Shown in pieces: positions 7,015-25,333 of a stretch of 64,000 nucleotides of DNA (position 1 is the stretch's first letter; each line of letters starts with the position of its first letter). The position numbers and the translations under genes are program-made. The DNA comes from Melioribacteraceae bacterium (GTDB lineage Bacteria; Bacteroidota; Ignavibacteria; Ignavibacteriales; Melioribacteraceae): assembly GCA_021739765.1 (NCBI GenBank), contig JAIPBD010000021.1, positions 2,453 through 66,452 on the forward strand, written 5' to 3'. The notes beneath the pieces were generated by a model. The model had not been told where the DNA came from. It ran no database searches and saw only the letters and a list, made by a program, of their open reading frames with translations.

Positions 7015-7722
7015 TCAAATATATTTTTTGATGAGGTTCATGTGATTGTTCTTTCCGATAACCATCGAAAGTGATTCGGCTTTTTCACCGCCGTCGTACA
7101 TTGTGTTGTCAACGAAAATGCTTTTTTTGAATAAATATAACTGACTGAGTGTTTGATTCATTAACTGCTTCATATCGTTTATCGATTGTTTTTCTCTCGC
7201 AAGATCATCCTCACTAACTTCAATTAAACTCAGCCAGTTTTTATTTTCCCCGGACTCCTTTTCAGATTTGAATTTCGATATTTGATTAAAACTGATCGGT
7301 GCTTTTATAACGATCTTTCCAAAATTATTACTCACCGATATCCAATTATCATCCTTCCATATAAAATCAGAATTGGAAATAAACTCGACTTTTGAATTCC
7401 TTCCCAATAACGCTGTGAGCGGATCAACCAATTTTATGTAATATTTATTCGCGAATACTTTTTTTAGACAAGCAGCTTTGTTTAGATAAATAACTTCATT
7501 ATCAATTATTTGATCTTCGAAGAAATGAATTGTTTTGTTCAGGATATCGGAAGTTGTTTGATCGCCGAGGTCAAGGTTTGTGAAAGAATCTTCACTTGAA
7601 ATATTACGAATAACCTTATCGAACCGGCAATTTTCACAATCGAAATTTTTATCGCAAAGTTTATATTCAACAACTCCCGATGACATCCACACACATTTTA
7701 AATCTTCCAAACTGCTTGTCAT
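7015..7722 (-). CDS. Hypothetical protein, N-terminal 4-Cys motif plus possible GcvH-like fold
   Basis: C10-x12-C23-x5-C29-x2-C32 (CVWMSSGVVEYKLCDKNFDCENC). The central region (NSKVEFI..GKIVIKAPISF) loosely resembles a lipoyl/GcvH-type hybrid barrel. Last gene of the NrfCD-like operon. Confidence 0.5.
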   Translation of the reverse strand: MTSSLEDLKCVWMSSGVVEYKLCDKNFDCENCRFDKVIRNISSEDSFTNLDLGDQTTSDILNKTIHFFEDQIIDNEVIYLNKAACLKKVFANKYYIKLVDPLTALLGRNSKVEFISNSDFIWKDDNWISVSNNFGKIVIKAPISFNQISKFKSEKESGENKNWLSLIEVSEDDLAREKQSINDMKQLMNQTLSQLYLFKKSIFVDNTMYDGGEKAESLSMVIGKNNHMNLIKKYI

Positions 7723-7733
7723 TCTAATTACCT

Positions 7734-8915
7734 TTACTTTGAAGGTGCCAATTCATGCGGAGTCTCAAATGAAATCAATGATTCCTTTTCTTCCGCTTTA
7801 TGTTCGAAGACCGGGAAGTAATTTGATAACCATTTGAATACAATAATACCAACCACAACCAAACTCATTGTAATACTGATCTCACCAAGCGATGGAAAAT
7901 AAATATCGCCGGTGGTATAAATAATTGAAGTGACACTTACATTCAGTCTGTTTAAAATAAATCCTGTTACAACCAATACCGATGTAAGGTATAACCACTT
8001 CCGATCCATTCTGAATTTTTTGCTTGAAAGTAAAATCGCCGGAACGATAGTTCCTATACCGATTTCGATATAAAACATAAATGTTTCAATCTCTGGTTTG
8101 AATAGAAAAGCGAGTTTTCCTTCCAGAACAATATCAACTAATCGCATTGCCAGGGTAATAACCAAAAATGCCATTGTAATTCTTGAAATTTCCGAGAGAA
8201 GTGGAAATTCAATTTTATGCCCCATTCCACGCGCGCTCGTATATGATTCGAAAATCACCATCGCAAATCCAACTGCGATTGCGCTCAGGTAGAAATAGAC
8301 CGGTAAGAAAGATGAGTACCACAACGGATGCATCTTTTGCGGAATTATTAAATACATGGAACCGAGAGATGATTGATGTAATGTTGAAAGAACGATTCCG
8401 AGAATGTAAATAGGAACAATAACTTTTCTTAGCAAAGTGAGAGTTTTTTGCCATTGGAATTTTTCCAACGCAAATGATAAAAACTCAAGGAACAGAACCG
8501 TTAAATAAAGCATTACACACCAAGCGACTTCAAACATTACTGAGCTTGGATTCCACATAATTAACGGATGCCAAATATTGTAAGGTTTCCCGAGATCGAA
8601 CATTAACGCCAACGCGACGAATGCGTAACCGAGAAAAGCGGTTAAAATTGCAGGTCGTGAAAGCGGTTTGAACTTTTCGATGTTGAAAATATGCGTAACG
8701 GCAGAAATCGTAAATCCACCGGCTGCCAATCCAACTCCGCAGAGAATATCAAATCCAATCCAAATTCCCCAGGGAAATTCATCGGATAAATTTGTTACCG
8801 CTCCCAATCCATAAACGAATCGAACGTATGTAAAATATACGCCGGATAGAAGAATAAGTGCCGCGATTCCACGCCAGAAAGTGAATTTTTCTAATATTTT
8901 CTTAAGCATTTTCAT
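7734..8915 (-). CDS. NrfD/PsrC-family integral membrane quinone-interacting subunit
   Basis: 393 aa with about 10 TM helices. Overlaps the upstream 4Fe-4S gene by 14 nt, the typical NrfC-NrfD pairing. Confidence 0.8.
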   Translation of the reverse strand: MKMLKKILEKFTFWRGIAALILLSGVYFTYVRFVYGLGAVTNLSDEFPWGIWIGFDILCGVGLAAGGFTISAVTHIFNIEKFKPLSRPAILTAFLGYAFVALALMFDLGKPYNIWHPLIMWNPSSVMFEVAWCVMLYLTVLFLEFLSFALEKFQWQKTLTLLRKVIVPIYILGIVLSTLHQSSLGSMYLIIPQKMHPLWYSSFLPVYFYLSAIAVGFAMVIFESYTSARGMGHKIEFPLLSEISRITMAFLVITLAMRLVDIVLEGKLAFLFKPEIETFMFYIEIGIGTIVPAILLSSKKFRMDRKWLYLTSVLVVTGFILNRLNVSVTSIIYTTGDIYFPSLGEISITMSLVVVGIIVFKWLSNYFPVFEHKAEEKESLISFETPHELAPSK

Positions 8916-9669
8916 CCTCCTTCATCCGGTTTTCTTCCGCAATTTGATTTTTTCTTTTTGTCAACCAATACATTCCGCCCAAGAATACAGAACCGACAGA
9001 AACTACATGCGGTATTTTATCCAAAGCACGTTTAGTTAATTCAGGTAACGGTTCGTTTGGTAAATTTCCGGCAAATCCAAGCTGTTCGAAAGGAACAGGA
9101 GATAAAATTAGAACGTGCGTGCCGCCGGCTTCTTCAAGTCCGTAAACATGCGGATAATAAGTATCCGGATCGTCAGCAATTCTTTGCAACGCAATTTCTT
9201 TTAATTCTTCCAGATCACCGAATAAAGTGGCTTCGGCAGGACAAGCTTCGGCGCATGCGGTCATCTCTCCGTTCTTAATTCTATCATGGCACATTGTACA
9301 TTTTTGAACCACAGGATTATTGCTTTGCCATTCATAACGGGGGATATTATGCGGACATGCTTGCATACAGTATCTGCATCCCATGCATTTGTCGCCATCG
9401 TATAATACCGGACCAAATTCTGTTTTTGTGAACGCACCGACCGGGCAAACGGAAACACAAGTCGGGTCAACACAATGCATACACATTTTACGTGTGTATA
9501 TTTCATCTTCATATTCTTCAACAACAGTATAAGATTTGTAAGAAAGATGATCGGTTAAAAAATCTTCTTTCCCTTCACCATTTTCATTTTGAGCTTTGCA
9601 TGCGTAATAACATTCACCGCATCCCACACACATTGTAGCGTCAAATAAAATTCCTTTTTGCTTAATCAT
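8902..9669 (-). CDS. 4x[4Fe-4S] ferredoxin subunit (NrfC/HybA/DsrO family) with C-terminal TM anchor
   Basis: Cys clusters CVGCGECYYAC, CMHCVDPTCVSVC, CMGCRYCMQAC and CTMCHDR..C..AC. C-terminal helix VVSVGSVFLGGMYWL. No N-terminal Tat signal is visible. Confidence 0.9.
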   Translation of the reverse strand: MIKQKGILFDATMCVGCGECYYACKAQNENGEGKEDFLTDHLSYKSYTVVEEYEDEIYTRKMCMHCVDPTCVSVCPVGAFTKTEFGPVLYDGDKCMGCRYCMQACPHNIPRYEWQSNNPVVQKCTMCHDRIKNGEMTACAEACPAEATLFGDLEELKEIALQRIADDPDTYYPHVYGLEEAGGTHVLILSPVPFEQLGFAGNLPNEPLPELTKRALDKIPHVVSVGSVFLGGMYWLTKRKNQIAEENRMKEDENA

Positions 9670-9680
9670 TTTTCTTTACC

Positions 9681-10379
9681 TCAGGATACTTTTAGGAATT
9701 CATCTTCAAATTTTTTGATTTGATTTTCATCGAGATATGAAACAACACCTTGAACGATTTCACCGCCGTCGTACATCGTAACTCCGGCGAGTTGAGGTTG
9801 TGCGGTTTGAACCGCGAGAAATTCTTTAAATCTGCTGAATTCATCTTGCAACCATTCTTTCGCGTTGAAACTATCGAAGAATGATGCTTTAGATTCGAGT
9901 AAATTTTCGGGTGCTATTTGAACCAACCAACCTTTTTCATAAACTTCTTCGGAATTGTTAACTACCGGTTTTAAATTGGTTGATGAAACTGTCCCTTCAA
10001 TAGGAGAGTAAAATTTTAATTCTTTACCAAGAATATTTGCTGAAAAAAGAACATCCCCTTTTTGAACCGAATCACCTTCACCGACACTCCAGTTTAATTT
10101 TACTTTGCCGAGAGCTTTAAGAATAAACTCATCCAATCCAAGTTGTAAAGTTTCGTTTCCAACCTCTTTTGACCAAATATGGCCTTCGGAGAGAAGAACT
10201 CCTTTTGGCAAATTGAGCTGTTTTGCGTCAAATAACGGAAGGGTTGAATCAGCGAGGGAAAGTGATCTTTCAAATGCCGGGTGTTTTACTTTTTTTGAAC
10301 GGACGATAAAATAATCGATTACAAGAAAAGTGATAAATAATAATGCTACAAATAACGCGACCATTTTGATTTTCTCCAT
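9681..10379 (-). CDS. Membrane-anchored GcvH-like (lipoyl-type fold) protein
   Basis: N-terminal TM helix (VALFVALLFITFLVIDYFIV), then GHIWSKEVGNETLQLGLDEF..VGEGDSVQKGDVLFS..KFYSPIEGTV, which resembles glycine-cleavage H. Start moved to MEKIKM at 10379. Confidence 0.6.
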   Translation of the reverse strand: MEKIKMVALFVALLFITFLVIDYFIVRSKKVKHPAFERSLSLADSTLPLFDAKQLNLPKGVLLSEGHIWSKEVGNETLQLGLDEFILKALGKVKLNWSVGEGDSVQKGDVLFSANILGKELKFYSPIEGTVSSTNLKPVVNNSEEVYEKGWLVQIAPENLLESKASFFDSFNAKEWLQDEFSRFKEFLAVQTAQPQLAGVTMYDGGEIVQGVVSYLDENQIKKFEDEFLKVS

Positions 10380-10400
10380 GTTTTGTTTGGTTATAACATC

Positions 10401-10416
10401 CCAATTGTGATGCCAA
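10401..10416 (-). promoter_or_regulatory. Candidate sigma-54 promoter (TTGGCAT-N5-TTGG) for the GcvH-like/NrfCD operon
   Basis: The minus strand reads ttggcatcacaattgg, with GG and TTG at canonical spacing, about 22 nt upstream of the ATG at 10379. The -12 element is GG rather than GC. Confidence 0.3.
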
Positions 10417-10773
10417 CAATTTTTATCAAGTTTACAAACCACCTAACTTATTGTTTTATAACAAGTTACATGAAGTTGGCTGATTATCTTTGGAATGAGC
10501 ACGAAGTTGGGAGTGATGAATATTTCAACACTCCGGTCTTGTCCTTTGTGGAAAAATTCATCAATACCCTTGAAGGGGTTGATTTTATTGAGGATCGGGA
10601 GTGTTGAATTTCTTTACATAGGTGTGTTGAATTATTCTACAACTTTTGACGATAATGTGATTAAAAGTTGTTCAGAAAGTTCAATTCAACTCAGAATTGA
10701 ATTATTTACTCCATCGAACTTTGCATTATGCGGGAGAGGTTTGTGGAGGCGAAAATTAATTCTAAATGTTGGC

Positions 10774-10837: not shown

Positions 10838-12331
10838 TTATGGATTTAATCCGGTATGGCAATCCGTACAAAGTGATTCTTTCCACATTTCATCAATATC
10901 TACCGGATGTCTAAATTCCAACGGTTCGCCAAATTTTGCAACTTGTAAACTATCGGCGGGACCTTGCGCGTTGATTACGTGGCATTGATTACAATCATTT
11001 GAAATAACTTTGCCTTCCTCGGATTCGTGGTAAGAATCGTGGCAACGGAAACAGCCATCAAATTCAAAATGACCGATATTGTTGGGATAATAATCCCATC
11101 GGACTTTCATTTCAGGAAAAATGTTTTGATTAAAAGCGTTTTGAACACCAACAATACTTTTTTCGATTAATTCCTTCTGCTCTTCAAAAATGTCTTCATA
11201 ATCTTCGGAATAAAATTCCAGTATTCCATTACGAATTGCGGCCATCGCGGAATCGGTGGTCGGATACTCCTCGCCTAATAATTCCATAGTGAGAGACTTA
11301 ATTTCCGGCAGTTCAGGCGATACATCCCCTCGTGCCAAAGCTTCATTAATAAAAACAGCCGGAGGTCTGTAATTGTGAGACGGGCGGTTGTGGCAATCCA
11401 TACAATCCATAGTTCTTATCTCATAATTCCCCAATGAATCCGGATCGATAGAATCATCACCATCATAAACAGTTATTTCGCCGGTTTCTAAATTCGTATA
11501 TCGAACCCATGGGATTTCCTGTCTTTTTTCGTCTGTTGAAATATATTCAACTTTTGTATTTGGACTAATATGCCAATGGCTTCCTTCCGAAAGACTTTTC
11601 GCGCTGGATTCGGCACCAACTTTTACGGTTAAATTAATATCCCATCTTGTATTTTTTTCATCGCTTAAATAATGGATTTCTTTCCGCATTGTAGAAGAAT
11701 AAAATTTTTCCGGCCAATGGCATTGTTCACAAGTTTCACGGGCCGGACGAAGATTTTTAATCGGAGTCGGAATCGGTCGTTCATATGTATTTGCCATTAC
11801 TGCGTAAACCTGGTATAGTCCTGTGATTTTTGCTTTAACAAACCAATCAGCTCCCGAGCCGACATGGCATTCGGCGCACCCTACTCTCGCGTGTGCTGAT
11901 GTTTGATAAGCTGTGTATTCGGGTTTCATAACCTCGTGGCATATTTCTCCGCAGAATTGATCTGATTCCGAGAAATGAAACGCTTCATATCCGCCAATCG
12001 CAGAGGCAAATAATAAAATTGCGGTTCCAAAAAGAAATATTGCGGTAGCATTTCTGTGTTGAGGAGTATTTAGGTTTATAATCGGTAGTTTGCCCTTATT
12101 CTCTTCAGATTTTTTTTTCTCGAAATACATTCCAATCGGAATTAAAATGAGACCAAAAATCATTACTCCGGGTAAAATCATGTAAATAATTAGACCAAAG
12201 TAAGCGTTACCTCGGTCAAGAATTGTGGTAACGATAGCTAGAATTATGATTAGTGAGAATGTTATTGCGGCTATTACAGCCCCTGCCATCGAAATTAAAT
12301 TATAGAATGAATCTGGAAGTTTGTTTTTCAT
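10838..12331 (-). CDS. Inner-membrane multiheme cytochrome c, NapC/NirT-related, ImcH-like architecture (6 CxxCH + 1 CX3CH)
   Basis: Three N-terminal TM helices, then FCGEICHEVM, CAECH, CEQCH, CMDCH, CFRCH, CNQCH and CTDCH. The size (497 aa) and layout resemble Geobacter ImcH. Confidence 0.75.
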   Translation of the reverse strand: MKNKLPDSFYNLISMAGAVIAAITFSLIIILAIVTTILDRGNAYFGLIIYMILPGVMIFGLILIPIGMYFEKKKSEENKGKLPIINLNTPQHRNATAIFLFGTAILLFASAIGGYEAFHFSESDQFCGEICHEVMKPEYTAYQTSAHARVGCAECHVGSGADWFVKAKITGLYQVYAVMANTYERPIPTPIKNLRPARETCEQCHWPEKFYSSTMRKEIHYLSDEKNTRWDINLTVKVGAESSAKSLSEGSHWHISPNTKVEYISTDEKRQEIPWVRYTNLETGEITVYDGDDSIDPDSLGNYEIRTMDCMDCHNRPSHNYRPPAVFINEALARGDVSPELPEIKSLTMELLGEEYPTTDSAMAAIRNGILEFYSEDYEDIFEEQKELIEKSIVGVQNAFNQNIFPEMKVRWDYYPNNIGHFEFDGCFRCHDSYHESEEGKVISNDCNQCHVINAQGPADSLQVAKFGEPLEFRHPVDIDEMWKESLCTDCHTGLNP

Positions 12332-14856: not shown

Positions 14857-14858
14857 AA

Positions 14859-18553: not shown

Positions 18554-19099
18554 ATGAAATACAGAAATCTTTTTATCGTTGCGATTGCACTTATTTTTGC
18601 AGTAACAACTAACGCACAAGACAAATTTGAATACGTCGGAGTTAAGACATGTGGTATGTGTCATAAAAAAGCTGACGACGGCGAGCAATTGAAAATTTGG
18701 GAAGCTTCTGCACACGCAAACGCATATAAGACTCTTCAAACCGAAGAAGCAGACAAAATTGCTGCTGAAAAGGGATTTAAAACCAAAGCCGCAGAAACAG
18801 CTGATTGTTTGAAATGCCATGTTTCCGGACATGGAGTCGATGCTAAATTGATCGGCAAAAAATTCAAGATGGAAGATGGCGTGCAATGTGAAACTTGCCA
18901 TGGTCCGGGCTCTGAATACAAATCTAAAAAAGTGATGGAAAACAGAGAAGAAGCTGTTAAAAATGGAATGTTGGTTTTTGAAGATGTTGATAAAGAACTT
19001 TGCCAAACATGCCACAATGAAGAAAGTCCTACTTTCGTAAAATTTGATTACAAAGAAATGTGGGCAAAAATCGCACATCCGATTCCTGCAGCAAAATAA
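18554..19099 (+). CDS. Periplasmic tetraheme cytochrome c (c554-like)
   Basis: Signal peptide MKYRNLFIVAIALIFAVTTNAQ. Four motifs: CGMCH, CLKCH, CETCH, CQTCH. Confidence 0.85.
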   Translation: MKYRNLFIVAIALIFAVTTNAQDKFEYVGVKTCGMCHKKADDGEQLKIWEASAHANAYKTLQTEEADKIAAEKGFKTKAAETADCLKCHVSGHGVDAKLIGKKFKMEDGVQCETCHGPGSEYKSKKVMENREEAVKNGMLVFEDVDKELCQTCHNEESPTFVKFDYKEMWAKIAHPIPAAK

Positions 19100-19115: not shown

Positions 19116-20384
19116 ATGAAAAAATTTTTATTCGTATTGTTTGTGTTATGCCTGAGTTTTTCAACTCAGGCACAACATTTCTCAGGTAGATTTTCTTCTT
19201 CCTTGTACTCGTTCGAAAGATTTACCGATAAGCAAAACTCAGAAACGAACCTTCGCTCATTTCAAACTTTATATTTTAATCTGGGCAATAAAGATTACTC
19301 ATTAAAATCAAGATTGAATCTTGAAACTAATTTGATGAATTCGCTTGACAACGATCCGAGGCTCAGATTCTATAATCTTTATGTCGAAGCCAGAAATATA
19401 TTTGATATCGCAACCGTAAAATTGGGAAGACAAACCCTTTTTAACAGTGCGGCCGGCGGATTATTTGACGGGCTGAGTTTTAAAGCAAATTATTCTATGT
19501 TCAAATTCGAAGGTTACTTTGGCGGGAATGTACCGGCTTATCAAAAACTGGCAATCATCGATAATTTTGGCGACAATTATTTGCTGGGCGGAAAAATATC
19601 TGCATATCCACTCGAAAAAGTAAAGGTTGCCGTTTCATATATCAATAAAAACTACAAACCTCAAGATTATTTAGCAAATCGACTTGATACCTTGAATAAT
19701 CCGATAACATTATTGATCGAACAAAATTCGAATCAATTTGAATTTGTATCCGCGGAAGCTTCTTATTTTGATGATAAATTTTTGACCGTATTTTCAAAAA
19801 TTGAATATGACTTGAATTTTGCAACCGCATCCAAATTTGAAGTTAGCGGAAGATACTCACAAATCGATGATCTCGGAGTTAGTTTTTATTATAATTTCCG
19901 TGAACCGCGAATTCGTTATAACTCCATTTTTTCTGTTTTTAACTACGGAAGTACTCAGGAAATTGAAGGTGGACTGGATTATCGGTTAACACCCGAGATT
20001 CAGTTAATGACAAAATTTGGAAATGTAACGTATGAAGATGATGATGCTCAACGTTACACATTAGGATTTAATACCATTTACGGAAATATAAGTTACCGTG
20101 TTTCTACCGGTTATACCGGTGAGCTAAATTCACTTTCCGCATATACGGCAAAATCTTTTATGGATGGAATGATCACTCCATCAGTCGGAGTTTCATTTAC
20201 AGGTTACAAATTATCAAAAGATGAAGAAGAGAAATCAATAACTTCCGTTCTTGCCGGAATGAATTACAGACCGATGCGGAATTTATCTTTTGATTTGCAA
20301 GGTCAATTTTTTAATAATCCAATTTATTCCAATGATTTCCGTGTACTGTTTAAAGTGAATCATTGGTTTAATACTAACTTTTGA
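19116..20384 (+). CDS. Outer-membrane beta-barrel protein (porin-like)
   Basis: Signal peptide MKKFLFVLFVLCLSFSTQAQ. Alternating hydrophobic beta-strand pattern rich in Y/G/N/S. C-terminal ..NHWFNTNF ends in an aromatic residue. No Cys or heme motifs. Confidence 0.7.
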   Translation: MKKFLFVLFVLCLSFSTQAQHFSGRFSSSLYSFERFTDKQNSETNLRSFQTLYFNLGNKDYSLKSRLNLETNLMNSLDNDPRLRFYNLYVEARNIFDIATVKLGRQTLFNSAAGGLFDGLSFKANYSMFKFEGYFGGNVPAYQKLAIIDNFGDNYLLGGKISAYPLEKVKVAVSYINKNYKPQDYLANRLDTLNNPITLLIEQNSNQFEFVSAEASYFDDKFLTVFSKIEYDLNFATASKFEVSGRYSQIDDLGVSFYYNFREPRIRYNSIFSVFNYGSTQEIEGGLDYRLTPEIQLMTKFGNVTYEDDDAQRYTLGFNTIYGNISYRVSTGYTGELNSLSAYTAKSFMDGMITPSVGVSFTGYKLSKDEEEKSITSVLAGMNYRPMRNLSFDLQGQFFNNPIYSNDFRVLFKVNHWFNTNF

Positions 20385-20392
20385 TAATTAGT

Positions 20393-21598
20393 ATGAAGAT
20401 AAAGATATATTATCCAGTTCTTGCTTTATTCCTTTTTGTGCTTATAGCAGCATTTTCATTTTCAAATGAAGGGGAAAAGCCCTCAAACAATGAAGTAATT
20501 AAATTTTCGCATCAACTGCACGGCGAGATGATGTCTTGTGCGGAATGTCACACAGGCGTTGTTGAAAGCTCATCATTGAGTGATCGGTTGCTTCCGGAAA
20601 AAGATGTTTGTGCTGATTGCCACGATGTTGACGATGACGAAAATTGCCAAATGTGCCATTATGAAGAGGTTTATGAACCATTGGAAAGTGGGAAATCAAA
20701 GTTGATTTTCGACCATCAATTTCATGGCAATTTAGATGAACTTGAATGCGAAAGCTGCCACACGGGATTAGACGAAGTCGACTATAGTTTCGAATCAAAA
20801 TCTGTTTTACCGGGAATGTCGCAATGTTACACTTGCCACAACGAAAATGCTGTTGCAACGAACGCTTGTGAGGCATGCCATATTGAAACACACGATCTAC
20901 TCCCCGAAACTCACGCAATTGTGAACTTTTTAGATAATCACAGATTTATGGCAACAGAAATGGATGCTAATTGCGCGATGTGTCATGATGACGATTTTTG
21001 CGGTACATGTCATGAATCTACAACAATGCTCGGAGTCGCAAACACAGCATCTGATTTTTACACACCATATTCACCGCACACTTATACGGACGGCATCAAG
21101 CAACAACAAATTACCCGCGCCCATGATTTAACATACAGATTTACACATGGAATTGACGCAAAAGGTAAAACTAACGAATGTTCAACGTGTCACAATCAGG
21201 AAACATTCTGTGTTGAATGCCATAATATGGAAGGTGGAGATATTGCTATCGAAGGTTTTGTTCCTCATTCACATTCAGTTGATAATTTTGTGACTTTTGG
21301 GGTTGGAACCGGCGGTGGAGAACATGCTGTTCAAGCTAGAAGGGATATCGAAAATTGCGCTTCATGCCATGATACGCAAGGTGCTGATCCGAATTGTATT
21401 TTATGCCACACCGATCCGGATGGTATAAAAGGAACAAATCCTCGAACACATGAAACAAGTTTTATGTCGGATCTTAACGGTGATTGGCATAATGATGACG
21501 GATCTGTTTGTTACAATTGCCATACTGATGCATTTGCGACGGCTAAAGTTGCCGGTAACGGATTCTGTGGTTATTGCCACGGAGCAAATGTTGACTAA
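20393..21598 (+). CDS. 14-heme c-type cytochrome (c3/c7-type repeats), periplasmic or membrane-anchored
   Basis: 14 CxxCH motifs. N-terminal hydrophobic segment IYYPVLALFLFVLIAAFSF. F.H..H....C..CH units are typical of class III cytochromes. Overlaps the barrel gene stop. Confidence 0.85.
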   Translation: MKIKIYYPVLALFLFVLIAAFSFSNEGEKPSNNEVIKFSHQLHGEMMSCAECHTGVVESSSLSDRLLPEKDVCADCHDVDDDENCQMCHYEEVYEPLESGKSKLIFDHQFHGNLDELECESCHTGLDEVDYSFESKSVLPGMSQCYTCHNENAVATNACEACHIETHDLLPETHAIVNFLDNHRFMATEMDANCAMCHDDDFCGTCHESTTMLGVANTASDFYTPYSPHTYTDGIKQQQITRAHDLTYRFTHGIDAKGKTNECSTCHNQETFCVECHNMEGGDIAIEGFVPHSHSVDNFVTFGVGTGGGEHAVQARRDIENCASCHDTQGADPNCILCHTDPDGIKGTNPRTHETSFMSDLNGDWHNDDGSVCYNCHTDAFATAKVAGNGFCGYCHGANVD

Positions 21599-21627
21599 AG
21601 AAATTATAACCTTTTTTGGGAATCGAA

Positions 21628-23673
21628 ATGAAAATTAGAAATATACTGGCTCTCATCTTCTCTTTTCTTTTAATTACAGTCTCTTGTAGTGATATTCAGG
21701 AAGAGTTAAACTCTCCCGCTGAAATAGGAATACATGAAGAGGGATTCGGAGAAGTTGGATCTGATAATTCTCACATTCTTCACTTTCAAAAAGAGAATTG
21801 GAATTTGAAGGATTGCCAACAATGTCATGCTGCTGATTATTCCGGTGGAACTGCCAAATTTAGTTGTTTAACTTGTCATACTGATGAAGCCGGTCCGGAA
21901 GCGTGTAATACTTGTCATGGTGATTTTAGTGATTCTTCAAGAATAGCGCCGCCAACCGATTTGGCGGGAAATATGGAAAGAACCGAGCGCGGAGTTGGAG
22001 CCCATACTTCACATGTTTATGAAAATATGCTTGGTGCCGGAATCAGTTGTTATGAATGTCATCCATCAGCAACCGGCAGCGATGAGAAATATGTCTTTGC
22101 TCATGTTGGAGAATTGCCTGCCGATATGTTATTCGGAACAGTTGCTTCTTTAAATGGAAATCCAACTTACGACTTCGACGCATTAACTTGTCAGAACACT
22201 TATTGTCATGGAAGTTTTTCATTCGATAAACCTACGAACTATAAAGATTACGCTTATACGGCAAATCAAATTGTTGGAAAAAATTCAACAGTTAAATGGA
22301 CTGAAGAATATAATAGCTGCGACGGATGTCACGGTTTGCCTCCAACCGGACATATATATTCAGAATTGAATCAATGTTATTTGTGTCATGCCGATGTAGT
22401 AAATTCTTCAGGTGAAATAATTAATAAACTAAATCATTTGGATGGCGAAAAACAATCAGTTGCTGAGTCTGAACTTGAGAACTGTGCAAAATGTCATGGA
22501 AGCGCCCAGAGCGATGCTCCTCCGGTTTCATTGAGTGGAAGTTCTGATCCCACTGATCGTGGTGTCGGCGAACATGAAAAACATTTACTCACAACTTCTT
22601 TCACAAATCTGATTGAATGCGCCGAATGCCATACAGTTCCGGCAACGTATGACGCCGCAGGACACTTTGACGGCACCCAATACGCTGAAGTATTATTCGG
22701 AACATTGGCCGCATCGGATGGTGCTAATCCGCAATACAGTCAATCCACACTGAATTGTGATAATGTTTATTGCCACGGTGGTTTCGAATTTGAGAAACCG
22801 GCGACTTATGCTGCTTTCGCTTATTCTTCGGATAAAATCAGCGGAAACGATCCTTCGCTAAATTGGACCTCACAAGCTGCAAATGCAGAATGTGGAACAT
22901 GTCACGGTTTACCTCCAACCGGACATATTTATTCAGAATTAAACCAATGCTATTTGTGTCATGCTGATGTGGTTAACGCAAGCGGTGAAATTATAAGTAA
23001 AGACAATCATATCAACGCCGAGAAAAATGTAATAGCCCAAAATGATCTTGAAACTTGTAATTATTGTCATGGTGACAAAAATGCCGATCCGTCAGTTCTA
23101 GCAAATGCGGCTCCTCCGGTTGCCCTAAATGGAAGTTCTGATCCGAGTTACAGAGGGGTTGGCGCTCATGAAATTCATGTTCGAACAACGGAAATTTCAA
23201 ATTCAGCAGATTGCGCGGAATGTCATACTGTTCCGGCAACCTTCGATGCTCCCGGCCATTTTGATAATTCCCAATATGCGGAAGTCAATTTTGGTGAAAT
23301 AATCTCTGTTTCGCAGGCATCTTCTGCCGCTGAATTCAAATCTGCCGGTACTACATGCGCAAATACATATTGCCATGGTGGATTCAAAAACGGAAACATG
23401 GAAAATATAGTAAATTGGACTGGTGGCTCGGAAGAGGCGAAATGCGGTACATGCCATGGTGACCCCGATACCGGAAATCCTTTACCAACGGGAACTCACC
23501 CTCAAGTTCAAGATTGTTCACGTTGCCATCCTTCAGTCGTCTCTGTGACGGACGGTCATTATTCTTTTGTCGATAAATCAAAACATATTGATGGTAAAGT
23601 TACAATCGGTGGAACAACATTCGATTGGACCGATCTTCAATTAAAAAAATTAAAAGCCGGGATTGACTACTAA
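21628..23673 (+). CDS. Lipoprotein multiheme cytochrome with three ~190-aa modules (14 CxxCH + 3 CX4CH)
   Basis: Lipobox LITVSC. Modules contain CxxCHG, CxECH, CxNxYCHG (CX4CH), CxxCHGxPPTGH and CxxCH. The DNA of modules 1 and 2 is partly near-identical. Confidence 0.85.
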   Translation: MKIRNILALIFSFLLITVSCSDIQEELNSPAEIGIHEEGFGEVGSDNSHILHFQKENWNLKDCQQCHAADYSGGTAKFSCLTCHTDEAGPEACNTCHGDFSDSSRIAPPTDLAGNMERTERGVGAHTSHVYENMLGAGISCYECHPSATGSDEKYVFAHVGELPADMLFGTVASLNGNPTYDFDALTCQNTYCHGSFSFDKPTNYKDYAYTANQIVGKNSTVKWTEEYNSCDGCHGLPPTGHIYSELNQCYLCHADVVNSSGEIINKLNHLDGEKQSVAESELENCAKCHGSAQSDAPPVSLSGSSDPTDRGVGEHEKHLLTTSFTNLIECAECHTVPATYDAAGHFDGTQYAEVLFGTLAASDGANPQYSQSTLNCDNVYCHGGFEFEKPATYAAFAYSSDKISGNDPSLNWTSQAANAECGTCHGLPPTGHIYSELNQCYLCHADVVNASGEIISKDNHINAEKNVIAQNDLETCNYCHGDKNADPSVLANAAPPVALNGSSDPSYRGVGAHEIHVRTTEISNSADCAECHTVPATFDAPGHFDNSQYAEVNFGEIISVSQASSAAEFKSAGTTCANTYCHGGFKNGNMENIVNWTGGSEEAKCGTCHGDPDTGNPLPTGTHPQVQDCSRCHPSVVSVTDGHYSFVDKSKHIDGKVTIGGTTFDWTDLQLKKLKAGIDY

Positions 23674-23686
23674 TCCCGGGCTTTTC
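23657..23686 (+). terminator. Rho-independent terminator overlapping the stop codon
   Basis: ccgggatt-gactact-aatcccgg forms an 8-bp stem, followed by gcttttct. Confidence 0.6.
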
Positions 23687-23720: not shown

Positions 23721-23842
23721 TGTTTCATGCTAAAGCGTTTTGTTTCAAAACGTTTCATGAAACACTGTGTTTCAAATCCTCTAACTCCTTATAAAATAAC
23801 ATCTTAGTCAACTCTCTTTCATTAATGAAACAACTTGTTTCA
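23721..23842. promoter_or_regulatory. Cluster of (T/C)GTTTCA half-sites including palindromes (candidate enhancer/UAS)
   Basis: tgtttca at 23721, 23741 and 23768; cgtttca at 23751; palindrome gtttcatgaaac at 23752-23763; tgaaac-N5-gtttca at 23826-23842. Confidence 0.45.
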
Positions 23843-23884
23843 CCCTCAGTTTAAATAAAGCGCGATTTAAGTCTATAATCATCA

Positions 23885-23899
23885 TGGCACTCGTTTTGA
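23885..23899 (+). promoter_or_regulatory. Candidate sigma-54 promoter TGGCAC-N5-TTGA
   Basis: Perfect -24 TGGCAC with canonical spacing to TTGA (the -12 is GA, not GC). Lies 37 nt upstream of the ATG at 23936. Confidence 0.5.
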
Positions 23900-23935
23900 G
23901 TATTAGTATTAAAACAAAACGGTGGAACTACTATA

Positions 23936-25333
23936 ATGAAAAAGACTATTTCCTCTTTAATTCTATTTTTTACACTATCGATTTTCGTTTCGTTTGGCTG
24001 TCAGGAAGAAGCGGATACGAACATTGCTATTCCGGCAGAAACAGTTGCACAAACCAATTCCTGCGAAGGCTGCCACACAAATTACGATCATCTGAAAAAA
24101 GTATACACACCTGAAGAACCATCAACTGAAGAAAGCCATGGCTGCGGCGGACCTCCGCCGTATTATGAACCCTATGACAGAGTTTATTTAGGTGGTGATG
24201 GTTACAATGAATTCAAGTCTGGTATTCACGGCCAAATCGGATGCGTTGGTTGTCACAATGGTGTTGAAGGTACTTCTGATAAAACCGTGGCTCACTCGGG
24301 AAGTTTTACGGCAAAGCCTTCCTTAAACTCCGAAGATGCGTGTGGTAAATGTCATCCGACCATTGTTGCTCGCGCAAAAAATAGTTTGCACGAACAAGGC
24401 TGGGGACAGAAGGCAATGGTTGTTAGAAGATCGGGAACAGGCACGAGTCCGACGGATTTTCACAATTTGTCTGATCTGATGAAGGAGGGTTACACAAAAA
24501 ACTGTATGAAATGTCACGCAACTTGCGGTGATTGTCATATTGTTCGACCAAATGCAAAAGGAGGGGGATTAGAAAGCGGACATAATTTTGTTAAAACACC
24601 CGATATGCGCGAAACTTGTGTCGGATGCCATGAAAGTCGAGGTGGTCATGCTTATTTCGGAATGGCCATTGGTACAAAACCGGATATTCATTTATCCGAA
24701 GCTGGATTCAATTGTATGGATTGTCACTCAAAAAATGAAGTTCATGGCGACGGAAATATTTATGATCAAAGATACAAAATGCCACTTTTGCCTTCTTGTG
24801 AAGATTGCCATAACGGATTAGAAACAGTCAATCCATTTCACACAAAACATTTCGATTCTTTTAACTGCCAAACCTGCCATTCGCAAGATTATAATAACTG
24901 TGGAAGTTGTCATATAGGTGGTGAAGGCGCAAGAATTGCTTCTCACCAAAAATTCAAAATTGGTTTAAATCCAATCCCGGAAACAAAACCATATCGTTTG
25001 GCAACAGTAAGAGAATCGCTTTCTGCTCCGGATAGTTGGGCGAATTACGGAATTGATAACCTATCCAACTTTGATGTCGCGCCCACTTACAAATACACAA
25101 CTCCTCATAATATTCAAAGGTGGACAACAAGAACAACAATCGATACGGTTTACGATTCTTCCCAACCGGATTGTGCTCAAAGTTGTCATATCGTAAAAAA
25201 TAGTGATGACGGATCGTATATCAATAAAGAATATTACCTATTTGATAGCGACCTCTTAGACTGGGAAAAGAACGCGACAAAAAATGTAGTAGTTGACGGT
25301 CAATTACCTCTGAGTTGGGGAACTGATCTTTAA
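23936..25333 (+). CDS. Lipoprotein multiheme cytochrome c (10 CxxCH + 1 CX3CH)
   Basis: Lipobox VSFGC. Motifs: CEGCH, CVGCH, CGKCH, CMKCH, CGDCH, CVGCH, CMDCH, CEDCH, CQTCH, CGSCH and CAQSCH. Confidence 0.85.
   Translation: MKKTISSLILFFTLSIFVSFGCQEEADTNIAIPAETVAQTNSCEGCHTNYDHLKKVYTPEEPSTEESHGCGGPPPYYEPYDRVYLGGDGYNEFKSGIHGQIGCVGCHNGVEGTSDKTVAHSGSFTAKPSLNSEDACGKCHPTIVARAKNSLHEQGWGQKAMVVRRSGTGTSPTDFHNLSDLMKEGYTKNCMKCHATCGDCHIVRPNAKGGGLESGHNFVKTPDMRETCVGCHESRGGHAYFGMAIGTKPDIHLSEAGFNCMDCHSKNEVHGDGNIYDQRYKMPLLPSCEDCHNGLETVNPFHTKHFDSFNCQTCHSQDYNNCGSCHIGGEGARIASHQKFKIGLNPIPETKPYRLATVRESLSAPDSWANYGIDNLSNFDVAPTYKYTTPHNIQRWTTRTTIDTVYDSSQPDCAQSCHIVKNSDDGSYINKEYYLFDSDLLDWEKNATKNVVVDGQLPLSWGTDL

What the first reader, a model, noticed from the sequence alone, without database searches (positions are those of the whole stretch)
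7015..25333. 18-kb multiheme-cytochrome island with the full parts list for extracellular electron transfer
Seven genes carry 87 canonical CxxCH motifs plus 5 variant (CX3CH/CX4CH) heme-attachment motifs. My per-gene counts are 6+1, 23, 16, 4, 14, 14+3 and 10+1.

The island combines three kinds of putative quinol-oxidising inner-membrane modules:
- an ImcH-like NapC/NirT-related cytochrome;
- an NrfC/NrfD-like pair;
- two cytochrome b plus multiheme units.

It also has a small periplasmic tetraheme, an outer-membrane barrel and two lipoprotein cytochromes. No catalytic subunit (molybdopterin, siroheme, or a pentaheme NrfA CxxCK site) is present. The content therefore looks like a wire to the cell surface rather than a soluble-substrate reductase. 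Such density in an apparently FCB-group genome is unusual.
Basis: partly seen in the sequence, partly recalled or inferred. Interest (0 to 1): 0.8.

Follow-up and report, generated by a model that had tools for sequence, protein, structure and literature searches.

The report
Ignavibacterial porin-cytochrome electron-export gene cluster

Summary
Seven ORFs carry 87 CxxCH plus 5 CX3-4CH motifs, against about 1 expected by chance.

The genome is a Melioribacteraceae MAG (Ignavibacteriota). The core is tetrahaem, a ~24-strand outer-membrane barrel, a 14-haem periplasmic cytochrome and a surface lipoprotein cytochrome. It has the composition of the porin-cytochrome (pcc) cluster described for Ignavibacterium album in 2014. 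Relatives of the barrel occur in 299 species-representative genomes.

Upstream lie:
- an ImcH homologue that meets all published family features;
- a CbcL-like 16-haem/cytochrome b fusion;
- a CbcBA-like 23-haem cytochrome plus cytochrome b.

No catalytic reductase lies in the island. None recurs next to 80 related clusters.

Outward extracellular electron transfer is therefore the best reading, though nothing here is experimental.

- Such density is normal for this phylum.
- The "NrfC/NrfD pair" belongs to a separate conserved sigma-54 cassette. That cassette holds two GcvH-fold proteins, an Fe-S protein without an export signal, a dihaem-motif sensor kinase, a sigma-54 regulator and an M54 peptidase. 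It reaches to base 3483 and is not clearly a quinol oxidase.

The decahaem lipoprotein, rhodanese and TPR genes (23936-26901) appear to form their own sigma-54 operon.

Verdict: a new member of a known kind, of modest interest.

The parts
3483..4001 (-).
   Evidence: Pfam PF07998, 91 bits. Follows the sigma-54 regulator in L081, L083, L085, L087, L088 and L089.
3998..5347 (-). Response regulator of the sigma-54 enhancer-binding type
   Evidence: Response_reg + Sigma54_activat + HTH_8. Conserved partner of the cassette.
5337..6941 (-). HAMP histidine kinase whose segment between the two hydrophobic helices carries CxxCH (115) and CX4CH (158); a putative periplasmic dihaem redox sensor
   Evidence: Pfam HAMP/HisKA/HATPase_c. 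Both motifs keep the same positions in 7/7 cassette kinases and in 2/2 kinases of a second type.
7015..7722 (-). Cytoplasmic protein with an N-terminal 4-Cys motif, a GcvH fold and a C-terminal TMxDGG motif
   Evidence: No Pfam or NCBIfam hit. 22 homologues with invariant C10, C23, C29 and C32. AF2 pLDDT 76.5; top 22 Foldseek hits are glycine-cleavage H proteins, TMt up to 0.76. The lipoyl-Lys position is not Lys.
7734..8915 (-). NrfD-family integral membrane protein, 10 predicted TM helices, N-in/C-in
   Evidence: PF03916, 88 bits. Best NCBIfam is HmcC at 347 bits, below the 550 cutoff. K+R count is 22 inside versus 4 outside.
8902..9669 (-). Four-cluster Fe-S protein (HmcB/HybA/FdnH-like) with a C-terminal hydrophobic helix but no Tat or Sec signal
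   Evidence: Fer4_11 and related domains. HmcB 266 bits, below the 420 cutoff. PDB best hit is FdnH at 1e-32. The N-terminus lacks a signal in 8/8 loci, whereas the paralogue in L083 and L084 has RRSFLK/RRNFLK.
9681..10364 (-). GcvH-fold protein with an N-terminal membrane anchor; first gene of the cassette
   Evidence: PF01597, 33 bits. 21 homologues, all starting MVAL(F/Y)V. No conserved lipoyl Lys. Shares the TMYDGG motif with 7015-7722.
10401..10415 (-). Sigma-54 type -24/-12 element (TGGCAT-N5-TTGG) upstream of the cassette
   Evidence: A comparable GG-N10-TG element lies 36-48 nt upstream of the gene start in 9 of 11 loci.
10838..12331 (-). ImcH homologue: inner-membrane 7-haem NapC/NirT-related quinol oxidase
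   Evidence: Three hydrophobic helices. CX3CH at residue 127 directly after the third helix, then six CxxCH. PF03264, 43.9 bits. E122, H132, K168, Q174 and Y183 match published E127, H137, K173, Q179 and Y188 at a constant offset.
12616..14856 (+). 23-haem periplasmic cytochrome with a C-terminal membrane anchor (CbcA-like)
   Evidence: Signal peptide. Hydrophobic helix 705-723 followed by a KRKQRKAKK tail. Paired_CXXCH_1, c7 and c3 domains.
14859..15704 (+). Dihaem cytochrome b (FdnI/HydC type; CbcB-like)
   Evidence: PF01292, 38.9 bits. 31% identical to the b domain of the next gene, with all four His ligand positions kept.
15722..18127 (+). CbcL-like fusion: 16-haem periplasmic domain plus a C-terminal dihaem cytochrome b domain
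   Evidence: Aligns to FdnI (1kqf_C) with His opposite H18 and at the three further positions I take to be H57, H155 and H169. Five hydrophobic helices.
18155..18457 (+). Small ABM-family protein, not conserved in related clusters
   Evidence: PF03992, 23.6 bits. Present in 0 of 80 related loci.
18554..19099 (+). Periplasmic c554-like tetrahaem cytochrome (counterpart of IALB_1840)
   Evidence: PF13435, 70 bits. Signal peptide. Next to the barrel in 77/80 loci.
19116..20384 (+). Outer-membrane beta-barrel of about 24 strands (pcc porin; counterpart of IALB_1839)
   Evidence: AF2 pLDDT 81.9, pTM 0.71, 24 strands. Foldseek best TMq 0.52-0.53 to the 24-strand ushers FimD/PapC; all hits are OM barrels. 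1023 homologues.
20393..21598 (+). 14-haem periplasmic cytochrome made of c7-type units (counterpart of IALB_1838)
   Evidence: PDB hit to the dodecahaem GSU1996 (3ov0), 1.3e-7. Next to the barrel in 77/80 loci, always with 14 CxxCH in the loci displayed.
21628..23673 (+). Surface lipoprotein cytochrome, 14 CxxCH + 3 CX4CH in three internal repeats (counterpart of IALB_1837)
   Evidence: TIGR01904 CxxxxCH/CxxCH domain x3, 117 bits. Lipobox Cys followed by S-D/E-x-x-D/E-D/E in 70/71 homologues. Homologues vary from 5 to 28 haems.
23657..23679 (+). Terminator-like hairpin at the end of the pcc operon
   Evidence: 9-bp stem with 5 GC pairs, followed by a T-rich tail.
23758..23842 (.). Two TGAAAC-N5-GTTTCA palindromes; candidate enhancer-binding sites
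   Evidence: The same palindrome lies upstream of homologues in L066 and L067. Background is 0.0024 per 320 nt.
23885..23899 (+). Sigma-54 promoter TGGCAC-N5-TTGA, 36 nt upstream of the decahaem gene
   Evidence: An 8-10/10 match 24-53 nt upstream of the start in 13/14 homologous loci. Other genes of the cluster mostly score 5-7 (rarely 8-9) and never 10.
23936..25333 (+). Lipoprotein cytochrome, 10 CxxCH + 1 CX3CH
   Evidence: Lipobox Cys plus an acidic stretch in 14/14 homologues. No solved relative.
25384..26367 (+). Lipoprotein with two rhodanese domains, both keeping the Cys loop (CYSGQTA, CYTGQTS)
   Evidence: PF00581 x2, 101 bits. Sequence. Co-occurs with the decahaem gene in 14/80 loci. 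Lipobox plus acidic residues by eye in 14/14.
26383..26901 (+). TPR protein, usually found with the decahaem/rhodanese unit
   Evidence: TPR_19. Found in 22/80 loci.
26965..28308 (+). PAS sigma-54 enhancer-binding protein; likely regulator of the decahaem/rhodanese operon
   Evidence: PAS + Sigma54_activat + HTH_8. 57-66% identical copy beside the pcc core in 27/80 loci; two more loci match only at 41%.

Best explanation
The region encodes an outward extracellular electron transfer pathway of the Geobacter porin-cytochrome type, in a Melioribacteraceae bacterium.

Proposed path (every transfer step is inferred):
1. Menaquinol is oxidised at the inner membrane by up to three alternative modules: an ImcH homologue, a CbcL-like 16-haem/cytochrome b fusion, and a CbcBA-like pair (a C-terminally anchored 23-haem cytochrome plus a dihaem cytochrome b). 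By analogy with Geobacter, these may serve different acceptor potentials.
2. Electrons cross the periplasm through the long membrane-anchored haem domains and/or the soluble c554-like tetrahaem.
3. They enter a 14-haem cytochrome that is proposed to sit inside a ~24-strand outer-membrane barrel.
4. They are handed to a surface-exposed lipoprotein cytochrome (14+3 haem motifs), which reduces insoluble or colloidal acceptors such as Fe(III)/Mn(IV) oxides, humics, electrodes or partner cells.

A second surface lipoprotein cytochrome (10+1) with a double-rhodanese lipoprotein appears to form a separate sigma-54 operon, probably controlled by the adjacent PAS enhancer-binding protein. It may extend the acceptor range, for example to sulfur or selenium species.

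The NrfD/Fe-S/GcvH-fold cassette, with its dihaem-motif sensor kinase and sigma-54 regulator, is a distinct unit. It is more likely regulatory or redox-sensing than a leg of the wire.

Shown here: gene content, folds, motifs, topology signals, synteny and promoter conservation.
Inferred: every electron-transfer step, its direction and the acceptor.
For: - Motif density is far above chance.
- ImcH family features are all met, including five published functional residues at a constant offset.
- Both cytochrome b units keep His at all four aligned positions, which I take to be the FdnI haem ligands.
- The 23-haem protein has a C-terminal anchor like CbcA.
- The barrel is modelled confidently as a 24-strand OM barrel.
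- The tetrahaem-barrel-14-haem triad is kept in 77/80 related loci. It is followed almost always by a lipoprotein cytochrome with a conserved Cys and an acidic motif of the surface-export type.
- The composition is the same as the published I. album pcc cluster IALB_1840-1837.
- No catalytic reductase is in the island, and none was found among the recurrent neighbour families scanned from 80 loci. Recurrent neighbours are CcsA and haem biosynthesis genes.
- Literature: the cultured family member M. roseus reduces Fe(III), and Ignavibacteria with such clusters are enriched on anodes and in Fe-reducing sediments.
Against: - No experimental datum exists for this organism, or for any Ignavibacteriota pcc cluster as such.
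- The barrel has no detectable family assignment in Pfam or NCBIfam. I did not test its sequence relation to Geobacter OmbB/ExtB.
- Threading of the 14-haem protein through the barrel is assumed, not modelled.
- CbcL/MtoC-type proteins also occur in Fe(II) oxidisers, so direction is not fixed by sequence.
- Pcc-type clusters also occur in sulfur, selenate and nitrate respirers and in anammox bacteria.
- The rhodanese partner points to chalcogen chemistry for at least one sub-unit.
- Multihaem cytochromes can themselves be catalytic without recognisable motifs.
Confidence: 0.72

Rival explanations
1. The conduit serves surface reduction of chalcogen or metalloid species (elemental sulfur/polysulfide, selenite, tellurite, arsenic-bearing colloids) rather than iron or electrodes. 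Alternatively, this applies only to the sigma-54 controlled decahaem/rhodanese unit. The surface rhodanese would bind or shuttle the sulfur or selenium species to the cytochrome.
For: - A double-rhodanese lipoprotein with both catalytic Cys loops intact is co-inherited with the 10+1 haem lipoprotein in 14/80 loci.
- In 13 of those 14 loci, and in the window, a conserved sigma-54 promoter precedes the decahaem gene.
- Pcc clusters occur in sulfur- and selenate-respiring bacteria.
- There is a weak NCBIfam hit of the decahaem to ExtM of the Geobacter selenite/tellurite operon.
Against: - The ExtM hit is 38 bits against a cutoff of 800.
- No NCBIfam family named for ExtH was among the rhodanese protein's matches.
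- The core pcc unit occurs in most loci without the rhodanese unit (66/80).
- ImcH and CbcL homologues are tied experimentally to metal and electrode reduction in Geobacter.
Confidence: 0.14
2. The pathway runs inward. It would take electrons from Fe(II), a cathode or a syntrophic partner into the quinone pool, as in Mto/Pio-type systems.
For: - CbcL/MtoC/MtrH homologues are found in Fe(II) oxidisers as well as reducers.
- Multihaem conduits are in principle reversible.
Against: - ImcH homologues have so far been reported only from reducers.
- Conduits lacking an extracellular cytochrome were classed 'mto-like' in one study, whereas this one has two surface lipoprotein cytochromes.
- Cultured relatives are organotrophic Fe(III) reducers.
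Confidence: 0.09
3. The cytochromes are a periplasmic reductase system for a soluble substrate (nitrite, hydroxylamine, sulfite, tetrathionate). One multihaem protein would act as the catalyst, and the barrel would be an unrelated porin.
For: - In one related locus (L081), the NrfD/GcvH cassette with its two-component system lies four genes upstream of nrfH-nrfA.
- Some octahaem enzymes have no simple diagnostic motif.
Against: - No CxxCK motif, and no Cytochrom_C552, HAO, molybdopterin or sirohaem domain, is in the island.
- None was found among the recurrent neighbour families scanned around the pcc core in 80 loci.
- The barrel is locked between the two cytochrome genes in 77/80 loci.
- The terminal cytochromes are lipoproteins with a surface-type acidic motif.
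Confidence: 0.04

Closest known systems
Porin-cytochrome (pcc) cluster of Ignavibacterium album JCM 16511, IALB_1840-1837 (Shi et al. 2014, PMC4245776); also reported for Melioribacter roseus and Ignavibacteriales MAGs (PMC6137239, PMC7399161)
   Same: - Same gene composition as described in the paper: a periplasmic cytochrome, a porin-like OM protein, a ~400-aa 14-haem periplasmic cytochrome, and an OM cytochrome with atypical haem motifs.
- Barrel homologues in Ignavibacterium MAG loci are 53-55% identical.
   Different: - Here the core is joined in one locus to ImcH, a CbcL-like and a CbcBA-like module. Within the 10 kb fetched on each side, ImcH was adjacent in only 2 of 80 loci from the genome scan (L001, L002), plus L085.
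- A second lipoprotein cytochrome/rhodanese operon is also attached.
- The OM cytochrome here has 14+3 motifs. Homologues range from 5 to 28.
Geobacter sulfurreducens OmaB-OmbB-OmcB and ExtABCD porin-cytochrome complexes
   Same: - Architecture of periplasmic multihaem + OM barrel + lipoprotein multihaem.
- The CxxxxCH/CxxCH domain (TIGR01904) named from Geobacter is present three times in the OM cytochrome.
- The periplasmic partner has c7-type triheme units.
   Different: - The barrel gives no family hit, and Shi 2014 called the Ignavibacterium proteins only distantly related.
- The periplasmic cytochrome has 14 haem motifs. Shi 2014 called the 14-haem I. album homologue the largest Pcc periplasmic cytochrome then known.
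- An extra dedicated c554-like tetrahaem is present.
- Complex formation is untested.
Geobacter inner-membrane quinol oxidases ImcH, CbcL and CbcBA
   Same: - ImcH: same length class, 3 TM helices, CX3CH + 6 CxxCH, and the conserved quinone-site residues.
- CbcL: N-terminal multihaem plus C-terminal FdnI-type dihaem b.
- CbcBA: multihaem with a C-terminal TM helix plus a separate dihaem b.
   Different: - 16 and 23 haems here, against 9 and 7 in Geobacter.
- All three are encoded side by side next to the OM conduit, whereas imcH is monocistronic in Geobacter.
Shewanella MtrCAB
   Same: Same logic: a periplasmic multihaem inserted in an OM barrel that contacts a surface lipoprotein multihaem.
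   Different: - No MtrB/PioB family signal.
- About 24 strands here. MtrB has 26 by my recollection.
- A 14-haem c7-type partner rather than a decahaem MtrA-type one.
- No CymA.
Hmc / Hyb / Nrf type Fe-S + NrfD membrane modules
   Same: NrfD-family 10-TM subunit and a four-cluster Fe-S subunit with a C-terminal helix. The best NCBIfam matches are HmcC/HmcB and HybB/HybA.
   Different: - Scores are below the equivalog cutoffs.
- The Fe-S protein has no Tat signal.
- There is no cytochrome or catalytic partner inside the cassette.
- The pair is flanked by two non-lipoylated GcvH-fold proteins and co-inherited with a sensor kinase, a sigma-54 regulator and an M54 peptidase.

Membership tests
ImcH | About 495-519 aa with three N-terminal transmembrane helices (Shi 2018; Levar 2014) | tested here: met
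   497 aa; hydrophobic helices at 16-34, 46-64 and 95-113.
ImcH | Atypical CX3CH directly after the membrane domain, followed by six CX2CH | tested here: met
   CGEICH at residue 127, then CxxCH at 152, 201, 310, 427, 447 and 488.
ImcH | NapC/NirT homology around the third helix and the first haems | tested here: met
   PF03264, 43.9 bits (cutoff 24.1), residues 94-184.
ImcH | Conserved haem-1 and quinone-site residues E127, H137, K173, Q179 and Y188 (G. sulfurreducens numbering; bioRxiv 10.1101/2023.05.03.539133) | tested here: met
   E122, H132, K168, Q174 and Y183, a constant offset of -5, read from the sequence. No direct alignment to GSU3259 was possible.
ImcH | Menaquinol oxidation required for high-potential extracellular acceptors | not testable with these tools
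   Needs genetics or biochemistry.
CbcL/MtoC/MtrH | N-terminal periplasmic domain with 3-23 CX2CH | tested here: met
   16 CxxCH in residues 27-455, with a signal peptide.
CbcL/MtoC/MtrH | C-terminal HydC/FdnI-like cytochrome b domain (usually 6 TM helices) with conserved His ligands | tested here: met
   PF01292, 63.8 bits. Five clear hydrophobic helices. His conserved at all four aligned positions of FdnI 1kqf_C, which I take to be the haem ligands.
CbcL/MtoC/MtrH | Sequence similarity to G. sulfurreducens CbcL itself | not tested
CbcBA | Multihaem subunit with a single C-terminal TM helix, plus a separate four-helix dihaem cytochrome b | tested here: met
   - 23-haem protein with helix 705-723 and a basic tail.
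- The adjacent 281-aa protein hits PF01292 at 38.9 bits, with the four His kept.
- The haem number (23 versus 7) differs.
Porin-cytochrome (Pcc) cluster | Adjacent genes for a porin-like OM barrel, a periplasmic multihaem cytochrome and an OM lipoprotein multihaem cytochrome | tested here: met
   Order conserved in 77/80 loci.
Porin-cytochrome (Pcc) cluster | The three proteins form a trans-outer-membrane complex that conducts electrons | not testable with these tools
   No complex modelling or biochemistry was available.
MtrCAB | MtrB/PioB-family barrel with decahaem MtrA and MtrC | tested here: not met
   - No Pfam or NCBIfam family for the barrel.
- About 24 strands.
- The partner has 14 haems of c7 type.
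- DmsE/MtrA-type model TIGR03508 is not hit by the 14-haem protein.
Hmc / Hyb / Nrf Fe-S + NrfD quinone module | NrfD-family membrane subunit | tested here: met
   PF03916, 88 bits.
Hmc / Hyb / Nrf Fe-S + NrfD quinone module | Fe-S subunit exported by its own twin-arginine signal, or by a Tat-signal partner | tested here: not met
   - No signal in 8/8 cassette homologues.
- No RR motif in the N-termini of the island's proteins or of the cassette homologues.
- Paralogues in L083 and L084 have RRSFLK/RRNFLK.
Hmc / Hyb / Nrf Fe-S + NrfD quinone module | Equivalog-level match to HmcB/HmcC, HybA/HybB or NrfC/NrfD | tested here: not met
   HmcC 347 < 550; HybB 311 < 450; HmcB 266 < 420; HybA 201 < 263; NrfD 22.6 < 347.6; NrfC 99 < 377.6.
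Geobacter ExtHIJKL(M) selenite/tellurite cluster | ExtM-type cytochrome and ExtH-type rhodanese lipoprotein | tested here: not met
   ExtM 38 bits versus a cutoff of 800. No NCBIfam family named for ExtH was among the rhodanese protein's matches.

The most novel reading that the evidence does not exclude
This reading concerns the left part of the region (3483-10415). It may be a previously undescribed, Ignavibacteriota-specific redox-sensing module rather than a respiratory quinol oxidase.

Components:
- an NrfD-type quinone-interacting membrane protein;
- a four-cluster Fe-S protein that lacks any export signal;
- two non-lipoylated GcvH-fold proteins, one membrane-anchored and one with a 4-Cys motif.

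The GcvH-fold proteins would act as signalling adaptors. They would feed a histidine kinase that has a periplasmic dihaem-motif sensor domain and a sigma-54 regulator. The module would then set expression of the neighbouring respiratory genes (imcH and the cytochrome operons here; nrfHA elsewhere) according to quinone-pool or periplasmic redox state.

Two observations suggest the GcvH fold has been recruited as a signalling domain in this phylum:
- response regulators fused to a GcvH domain lie next to other Fe-S/NrfD/13-haem units (L084, L087);
- the GcvH-fold pair persists with the two-component system when Fe-S/NrfD are absent (L088).
Probability: 0.3. Interest if true: 0.55.

Novelty: new member of a known kind. 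Interest (0 to 1): 0.3.

Why it matters
- If the pathway works as inferred, this lineage can respire insoluble iron or manganese minerals, humics or electrodes. That bears on iron and carbon cycling in the anoxic waters and sediments where Melioribacteraceae are common. It also bears on the frequent appearance of Ignavibacteria on bioelectrochemical anodes.
- This locus places homologues or look-alikes of all three Geobacter inner-membrane quinol oxidases beside the outer-membrane conduit. That makes it a compact candidate for heterologous reconstruction of a complete non-proteobacterial pathway.
- The general point was already in the literature, so the gain is incremental.
- The less expected by-products are the GcvH-fold/NrfD/Fe-S/sigma-54 cassette, the dihaem-motif sensor kinases, and the conserved sigma-54 promoter of the decahaem/rhodanese operon. 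They give testable handles on how these bacteria regulate cytochrome expression.

Tried and rejected
- Sigma-54 promoters for the whole island. The window-wide count of TGGCAC-N5-TTGC-like sites equals chance (33 versus 32.9). No conserved site was found upstream of imcH, the 23-haem gene or the tetrahaem gene. Only the sites before the decahaem gene and before the GcvH cassette are phylogenetically conserved.
- Horizontal-transfer "island" reading. There are no tRNA genes and no Rfam elements. GC is only slightly raised. The core is syntenic across the phylum. It is a gene cluster, not a mobile island.
- Mtr-type assignment: rejected (see the membership test).
- Solved-structure relatives. 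None were found for the OM cytochrome, the decahaem, the NrfD-like protein or the separate cytochrome b.
- Lipoylation of the GcvH-fold proteins. The Lys position is not conserved.
- Enhancer palindromes. TGAAAC-N5-GTTTCA occurs upstream of the decahaem gene only in the window, L066 and L067. The GGAGTGTTGAA repeats upstream of the cassette recur only in L081. I treat both as local observations.
- I could not compare directly with the Geobacter ImcH, CbcL, CbcBA, OmbB or ExtB sequences, or with the I. album or M. roseus reference proteins. These were not retrievable here.

Full report
**1. Observation**

I translated every ORF of 80 aa or more in 1-32000 and counted haem-attachment motifs.
- 10838-12331(-): 6 CxxCH + 1 CX3CH
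- 12616-14856(+): 23
- 15722-18127(+): 16
- 18542-19099(+): 4
- 20381-21598(+): 14
- 21616-23673(+): 14 + 3 CX4CH
- 23936-25333(+): 10 + 1 CX3CH

The six-frame CxxCH count in 7015-25333 is 89. Shuffles give 1.24 +/- 1.07, and the remaining 45.7 kb hold one.

**2. Organism**

The barrel protein is 100% identical to a hypothetical protein of a Melioribacteraceae MAG. It is encoded identically in assemblies GCA_021738665.1 and GCA_021740875.1. All named homologues come from Ignavibacteria/Melioribacteraceae, or from MAGs labelled 'Bacteroidetes'.

**3. The outer-membrane module**

Genes 18554-23673 encode four proteins.
- A c554-like tetrahaem with a Sec signal (PF13435).
- A 422-aa protein with no family hit. 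AlphaFold models it as a ~24-strand barrel behind a signal helix (pLDDT 81.9, pTM 0.71). It matches only outer-membrane barrels in the PDB, best the 24-strand ushers FimD/PapC.
- A 401-aa, 14-haem protein made of c7-type units. It is related to the dodecahaem GSU1996 (3ov0, 1.3e-7).
- A lipoprotein cytochrome with three internal repeats. Each repeat contains a CxxxxCH/CxxCH domain (TIGR01904, 117 bits).

A genome scan found barrel relatives in 299 species-representative genomes.

In the 80 loci fetched:
- The tetrahaem and the 14-haem gene each flank the barrel in 77.
- The next gene is almost always a cytochrome of variable size, 5-28 CxxCH plus 1-2 CX4CH.
- Its N-terminus is a signal peptide ending in Cys, followed by S-(D/E)-x-x-(D/E)-(D/E), in 70 of 71 cases.

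From my knowledge of Bacteroidota lipoprotein export signals, such an acidic stretch after the lipidated Cys marks surface-exposed lipoproteins. That step is inference.

This set of four genes matches the pcc cluster that Shi et al. described for Ignavibacterium album. That cluster comprises IALB_1840 (periplasmic cytochrome), IALB_1839 (porin), IALB_1838 (400 aa, 14 haems, the largest Pcc periplasmic cytochrome then known) and IALB_1837 (OM cytochrome with atypical motifs). Later papers report the same for M. roseus and for Ignavibacteriales MAGs from iron-rich springs and anodes.

**4. The inner-membrane modules**

*ImcH homologue (10838-12331).* It meets every published ImcH criterion:
- 497 aa and three N-terminal helices;
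- CX3CH immediately after helix 3, followed by six CxxCH;
- NapC/NirT homology.

The residues reported as conserved around haem 1 and the quinone site of G. sulfurreducens ImcH are E127, H137, K173, Q179 and Y188. They are present here as E122, H132, K168, Q174 and Y183, a constant offset of five.

*CbcL-like fusion (15722-18127).* It has a signal peptide, 16 haems, a linker helix and a four-helix FdnI-type cytochrome b domain. His is kept at all four aligned FdnI positions, which I take to be the haem ligands. This is the CbcL/MtoC/MtrH architecture as defined.

*CbcBA-like pair (12616-14856 and 14859-15704).* The first gene is a 23-haem protein with a C-terminal helix and a basic tail. The second is a separate dihaem cytochrome b, 31% identical to the fused one, with the same His positions. 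That matches the description of CbcBA.

The locus holds look-alikes of all three Geobacter quinol oxidases shown to matter for extracellular electron transfer.

The cytochrome-b modules accompany the pcc core in about 46-48 of 80 loci. ImcH lies within 10 kb only in L001, L002 and L085.

If haems are spaced about 1 nm apart, a 23-haem chain could span much of the periplasm. This is my speculation.

**5. The 'NrfC/NrfD pair' is something else**

The NrfD-family protein (7734-8915) and the Fe-S protein (8902-9669) match HmcC/HmcB and HybB/HybA best, but below equivalog cutoffs.

Two proteins flank them.
- The upstream one (9681-10364) is a membrane-anchored GcvH-family protein.
- The downstream one (7015-7722) has no family. 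Its model has a GcvH fold: the top 22 PDB hits are all H-proteins, TMt up to 0.76. This fold sits behind an invariant four-Cys N-terminal motif.

The two share a C-terminal TM(Y)DGG motif. Neither keeps the lipoyl lysine.

Only 21-22 homologues of each were found among 5.8 billion proteins with the word-seeded search.

Their genomic contexts show a conserved cassette:

GcvH-fold(TM) / Fe-S / NrfD / GcvH-fold(4-Cys) / HAMP histidine kinase / sigma-54 response regulator / Peptidase_M54

The cassette varies between loci:
- It occurs with ImcH upstream in the window, L001, L002, L085 and L089.
- It occurs without ImcH in L081, L083, L084, L086 and L087.
- In L081 it lies four genes upstream of nrfH-nrfA.
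- In L088 it lacks Fe-S/NrfD altogether, while the two GcvH-fold genes stay with the kinase and regulator.
- A sigma-54 type -24/-12 element lies 36-48 nt upstream of its first gene in 9 of 11 loci (window 10401-10415).

The kinase has CxxCH and CX4CH at fixed positions between its two membrane helices in all nine kinases examined. This suggests a periplasmic dihaem sensor.

Response regulators fused to a GcvH domain sit next to other Fe-S(Tat)/NrfD/13-haem units.

The cassette's Fe-S protein has no export signal in 8 of 8 loci. The paralogue in those other units has a textbook RRSFLK/RRNFLK signal. Yet the cassette protein keeps a C-terminal helix with a basic tail, as HybA and FdnH do. Its side of the membrane is therefore unresolved.

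I conclude that this unit is a distinct, probably regulatory or redox-sensing module. It should not be counted with confidence as a third quinol oxidase of the wire.

**6. A second terminal unit**

A terminator-like hairpin (23657-23679) follows the OM cytochrome. The 10+1 haem lipoprotein gene (23936-25333) then has its own sigma-54 promoter, TGGCAC-N5-TTGA, at 23885-23899.

An 8-10/10 match lies 24-53 nt upstream of the start in 13 of 14 homologous loci. Other genes of the cluster mostly score 5-7, rarely 8-9, and never 10.

Two TGAAAC-N5-GTTTCA palindromes lie upstream. They recur in L066 and L067.

The gene is followed by:
- a lipoprotein with two rhodanese domains that keep their Cys loops;
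- a TPR protein;
- a PAS sigma-54 activator.

The set is co-inherited in 14-29 of 80 loci. This unit may widen the acceptor range towards sulfur or selenium species. The resemblance to Geobacter ExtH/ExtM is only architectural.

**7. Is there a catalytic reductase?**

None is in the island. There is no CxxCK, and no molybdopterin (CISM), Cytochrom_C552, HAO or sirohaem domain.

I clustered 440 unassigned neighbour ORFs from the 80 loci and scanned about 20 representatives of the recurrent or large families. The recurrent neighbours are:
- CcsA plus hemA/C/D/E/N (13-24 loci);
- an SdhA-type flavoprotein (5 loci);
- housekeeping genes;
- in 3 loci, a xanthine-dehydrogenase-type enzyme, which I take to be cytoplasmic.

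**8. Mechanism and rivals**

The best-supported reading is outward electron transfer from menaquinol, through alternative inner-membrane oxidases, periplasmic haem chains and the barrel-embedded 14-haem cytochrome, to surface lipoprotein cytochromes (confidence about 0.7).

It rests on three things:
- homology to genetically proven Geobacter components;
- architecture shared with proven porin-cytochrome complexes;
- the physiology of relatives.

Direction, acceptor and complex formation are all inferred.

Rivals are chalcogen reduction at the surface (especially for the rhodanese unit), inward electron uptake, and a periplasmic soluble-substrate reductase. They are scored in the rival section.

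**9. Novelty**

The following are already published:
- the pcc core;
- ImcH and CbcL homologues in Ignavibacteriae;
- the abundance of large multihaem cytochromes in this phylum.

The finding is a well-preserved, unusually complete new member of a known kind.

The parts I could not find described are the GcvH-fold/NrfD/Fe-S/sigma-54 cassette, the dihaem-motif sensor kinases and the conserved sigma-54 control of the decahaem/rhodanese operon. My literature search on this was limited.

Noticed in passing
window 3483-10415 (- strand); also L081, L083-L089: A conserved Ignavibacteriota cassette: TM-anchored GcvH-fold protein / signal-less 4-cluster Fe-S protein / NrfD-like protein / 4-Cys GcvH-fold protein / HAMP kinase / sigma-54 regulator / M54 peptidase. 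A sigma-54 type promoter precedes it. Only about 21-22 homologues of each GcvH-fold protein were found. In L088 the cassette lacks Fe-S/NrfD.
   Followed up: yes
window 5337-6941 (-), residues 115-119 and 158-164; L084 888-2753; L087 1191-3062: Two types of histidine kinase next to cytochrome/NrfD units carry strictly conserved CxxCH and CX4CH motifs between their two membrane helices. This suggests periplasmic dihaem redox sensors.
   Followed up: partly
L084 52-891; L087 388-1194 and 1-301: Response regulators whose output domain is a GcvH-family domain (Response_reg + GCV_H). They are encoded beside Fe-S(Tat)/NrfD/13-haem cytochrome/kinase units. Probably the same 262-267-aa proteins lie upstream of the 23-haem gene in L007, L009 and L053.
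   Followed up: partly
window 8902-9669 (-) versus L083 2392-3294 and L084 5150-6052: The cassette's Fe-S protein has no Tat signal in 8/8 loci, although it keeps a HybA/FdnH-like C-terminal helix and basic tail. The paralogue of the neighbouring units has RRSFLK/RRNFLK. How or whether it is exported is unexplained.
   Followed up: partly
window 23885-23899 and 23758-23842: A conserved sigma-54 promoter lies before the decahaem lipoprotein gene (13/14 related loci). Two TGAAAC-N5-GTTTCA palindromes lie upstream (also in L066 and L067). They are likely binding sites of the PAS sigma-54 activator at 26965-28308.
   Followed up: partly
window 10774-10827: A perfect 27-bp tandem duplication (TTCGACAAGCTCAGCCAACAAATGGTA x2) lies immediately downstream of the imcH stop. 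GGAGTGTTGAA-type repeats and palindromes lie at 10509-10641, between it and the cassette promoter.
   Followed up: no
L001 13828-20240 and 12-23 other loci: A CcsA-type cytochrome c assembly gene and haem biosynthesis genes hemA, hemC, hemD, hemE and hemN lie directly downstream of the pcc cluster in many Ignavibacteriota genomes. They are not in this window.
   Followed up: partly
L008 16034-18430; L036 15650-17062; window 40423-42756: Multihaem cytochromes (14 and 8 CxxCH) near related pcc clusters end in a type IX secretion sorting domain (Por_Secre_tail). This is a second route to the cell surface. The window's 777-aa ORF at 40423-42756 shares the tail region with them by tblastn, but has no haem motifs.
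   Followed up: no
L001-L080, the gene after the 14-haem cytochrome: The outer-membrane lipoprotein cytochrome varies from about 290 to 874 aa and from 5 to 28 CxxCH among homologues. The 14-haem periplasmic partner and the barrel stay constant. The window's copy is an internal triplication (repeat period about 190 aa).
   Followed up: partly
L081 17186-19350: In one genome the GcvH/NrfD cassette, with its two-component system, lies four genes upstream of nrfH and nrfA. No pcc cluster lies within the 10 kb fetched on each side. This suggests the cassette is a general regulator of anaerobic respiratory genes.
   Followed up: no
window 332-803, 806-1439, 2829-3428, 51503-51974, 52400-52844: Several long tandem repeat arrays: 21 bp x 22.5, 314 bp x 2, 168 bp x 3.6, and 101 bp x 4.7 with internal hairpins. 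The ORFs listed at 175-852, 313-804 and 360-971 lie over the first of these arrays and are probably not genes.
   Followed up: no
window 18155-18457: A 100-aa ABM-family (antibiotic biosynthesis monooxygenase-like) gene sits between the CbcL-like gene and the tetrahaem gene. It is absent from all 80 related loci.
   Followed up: no
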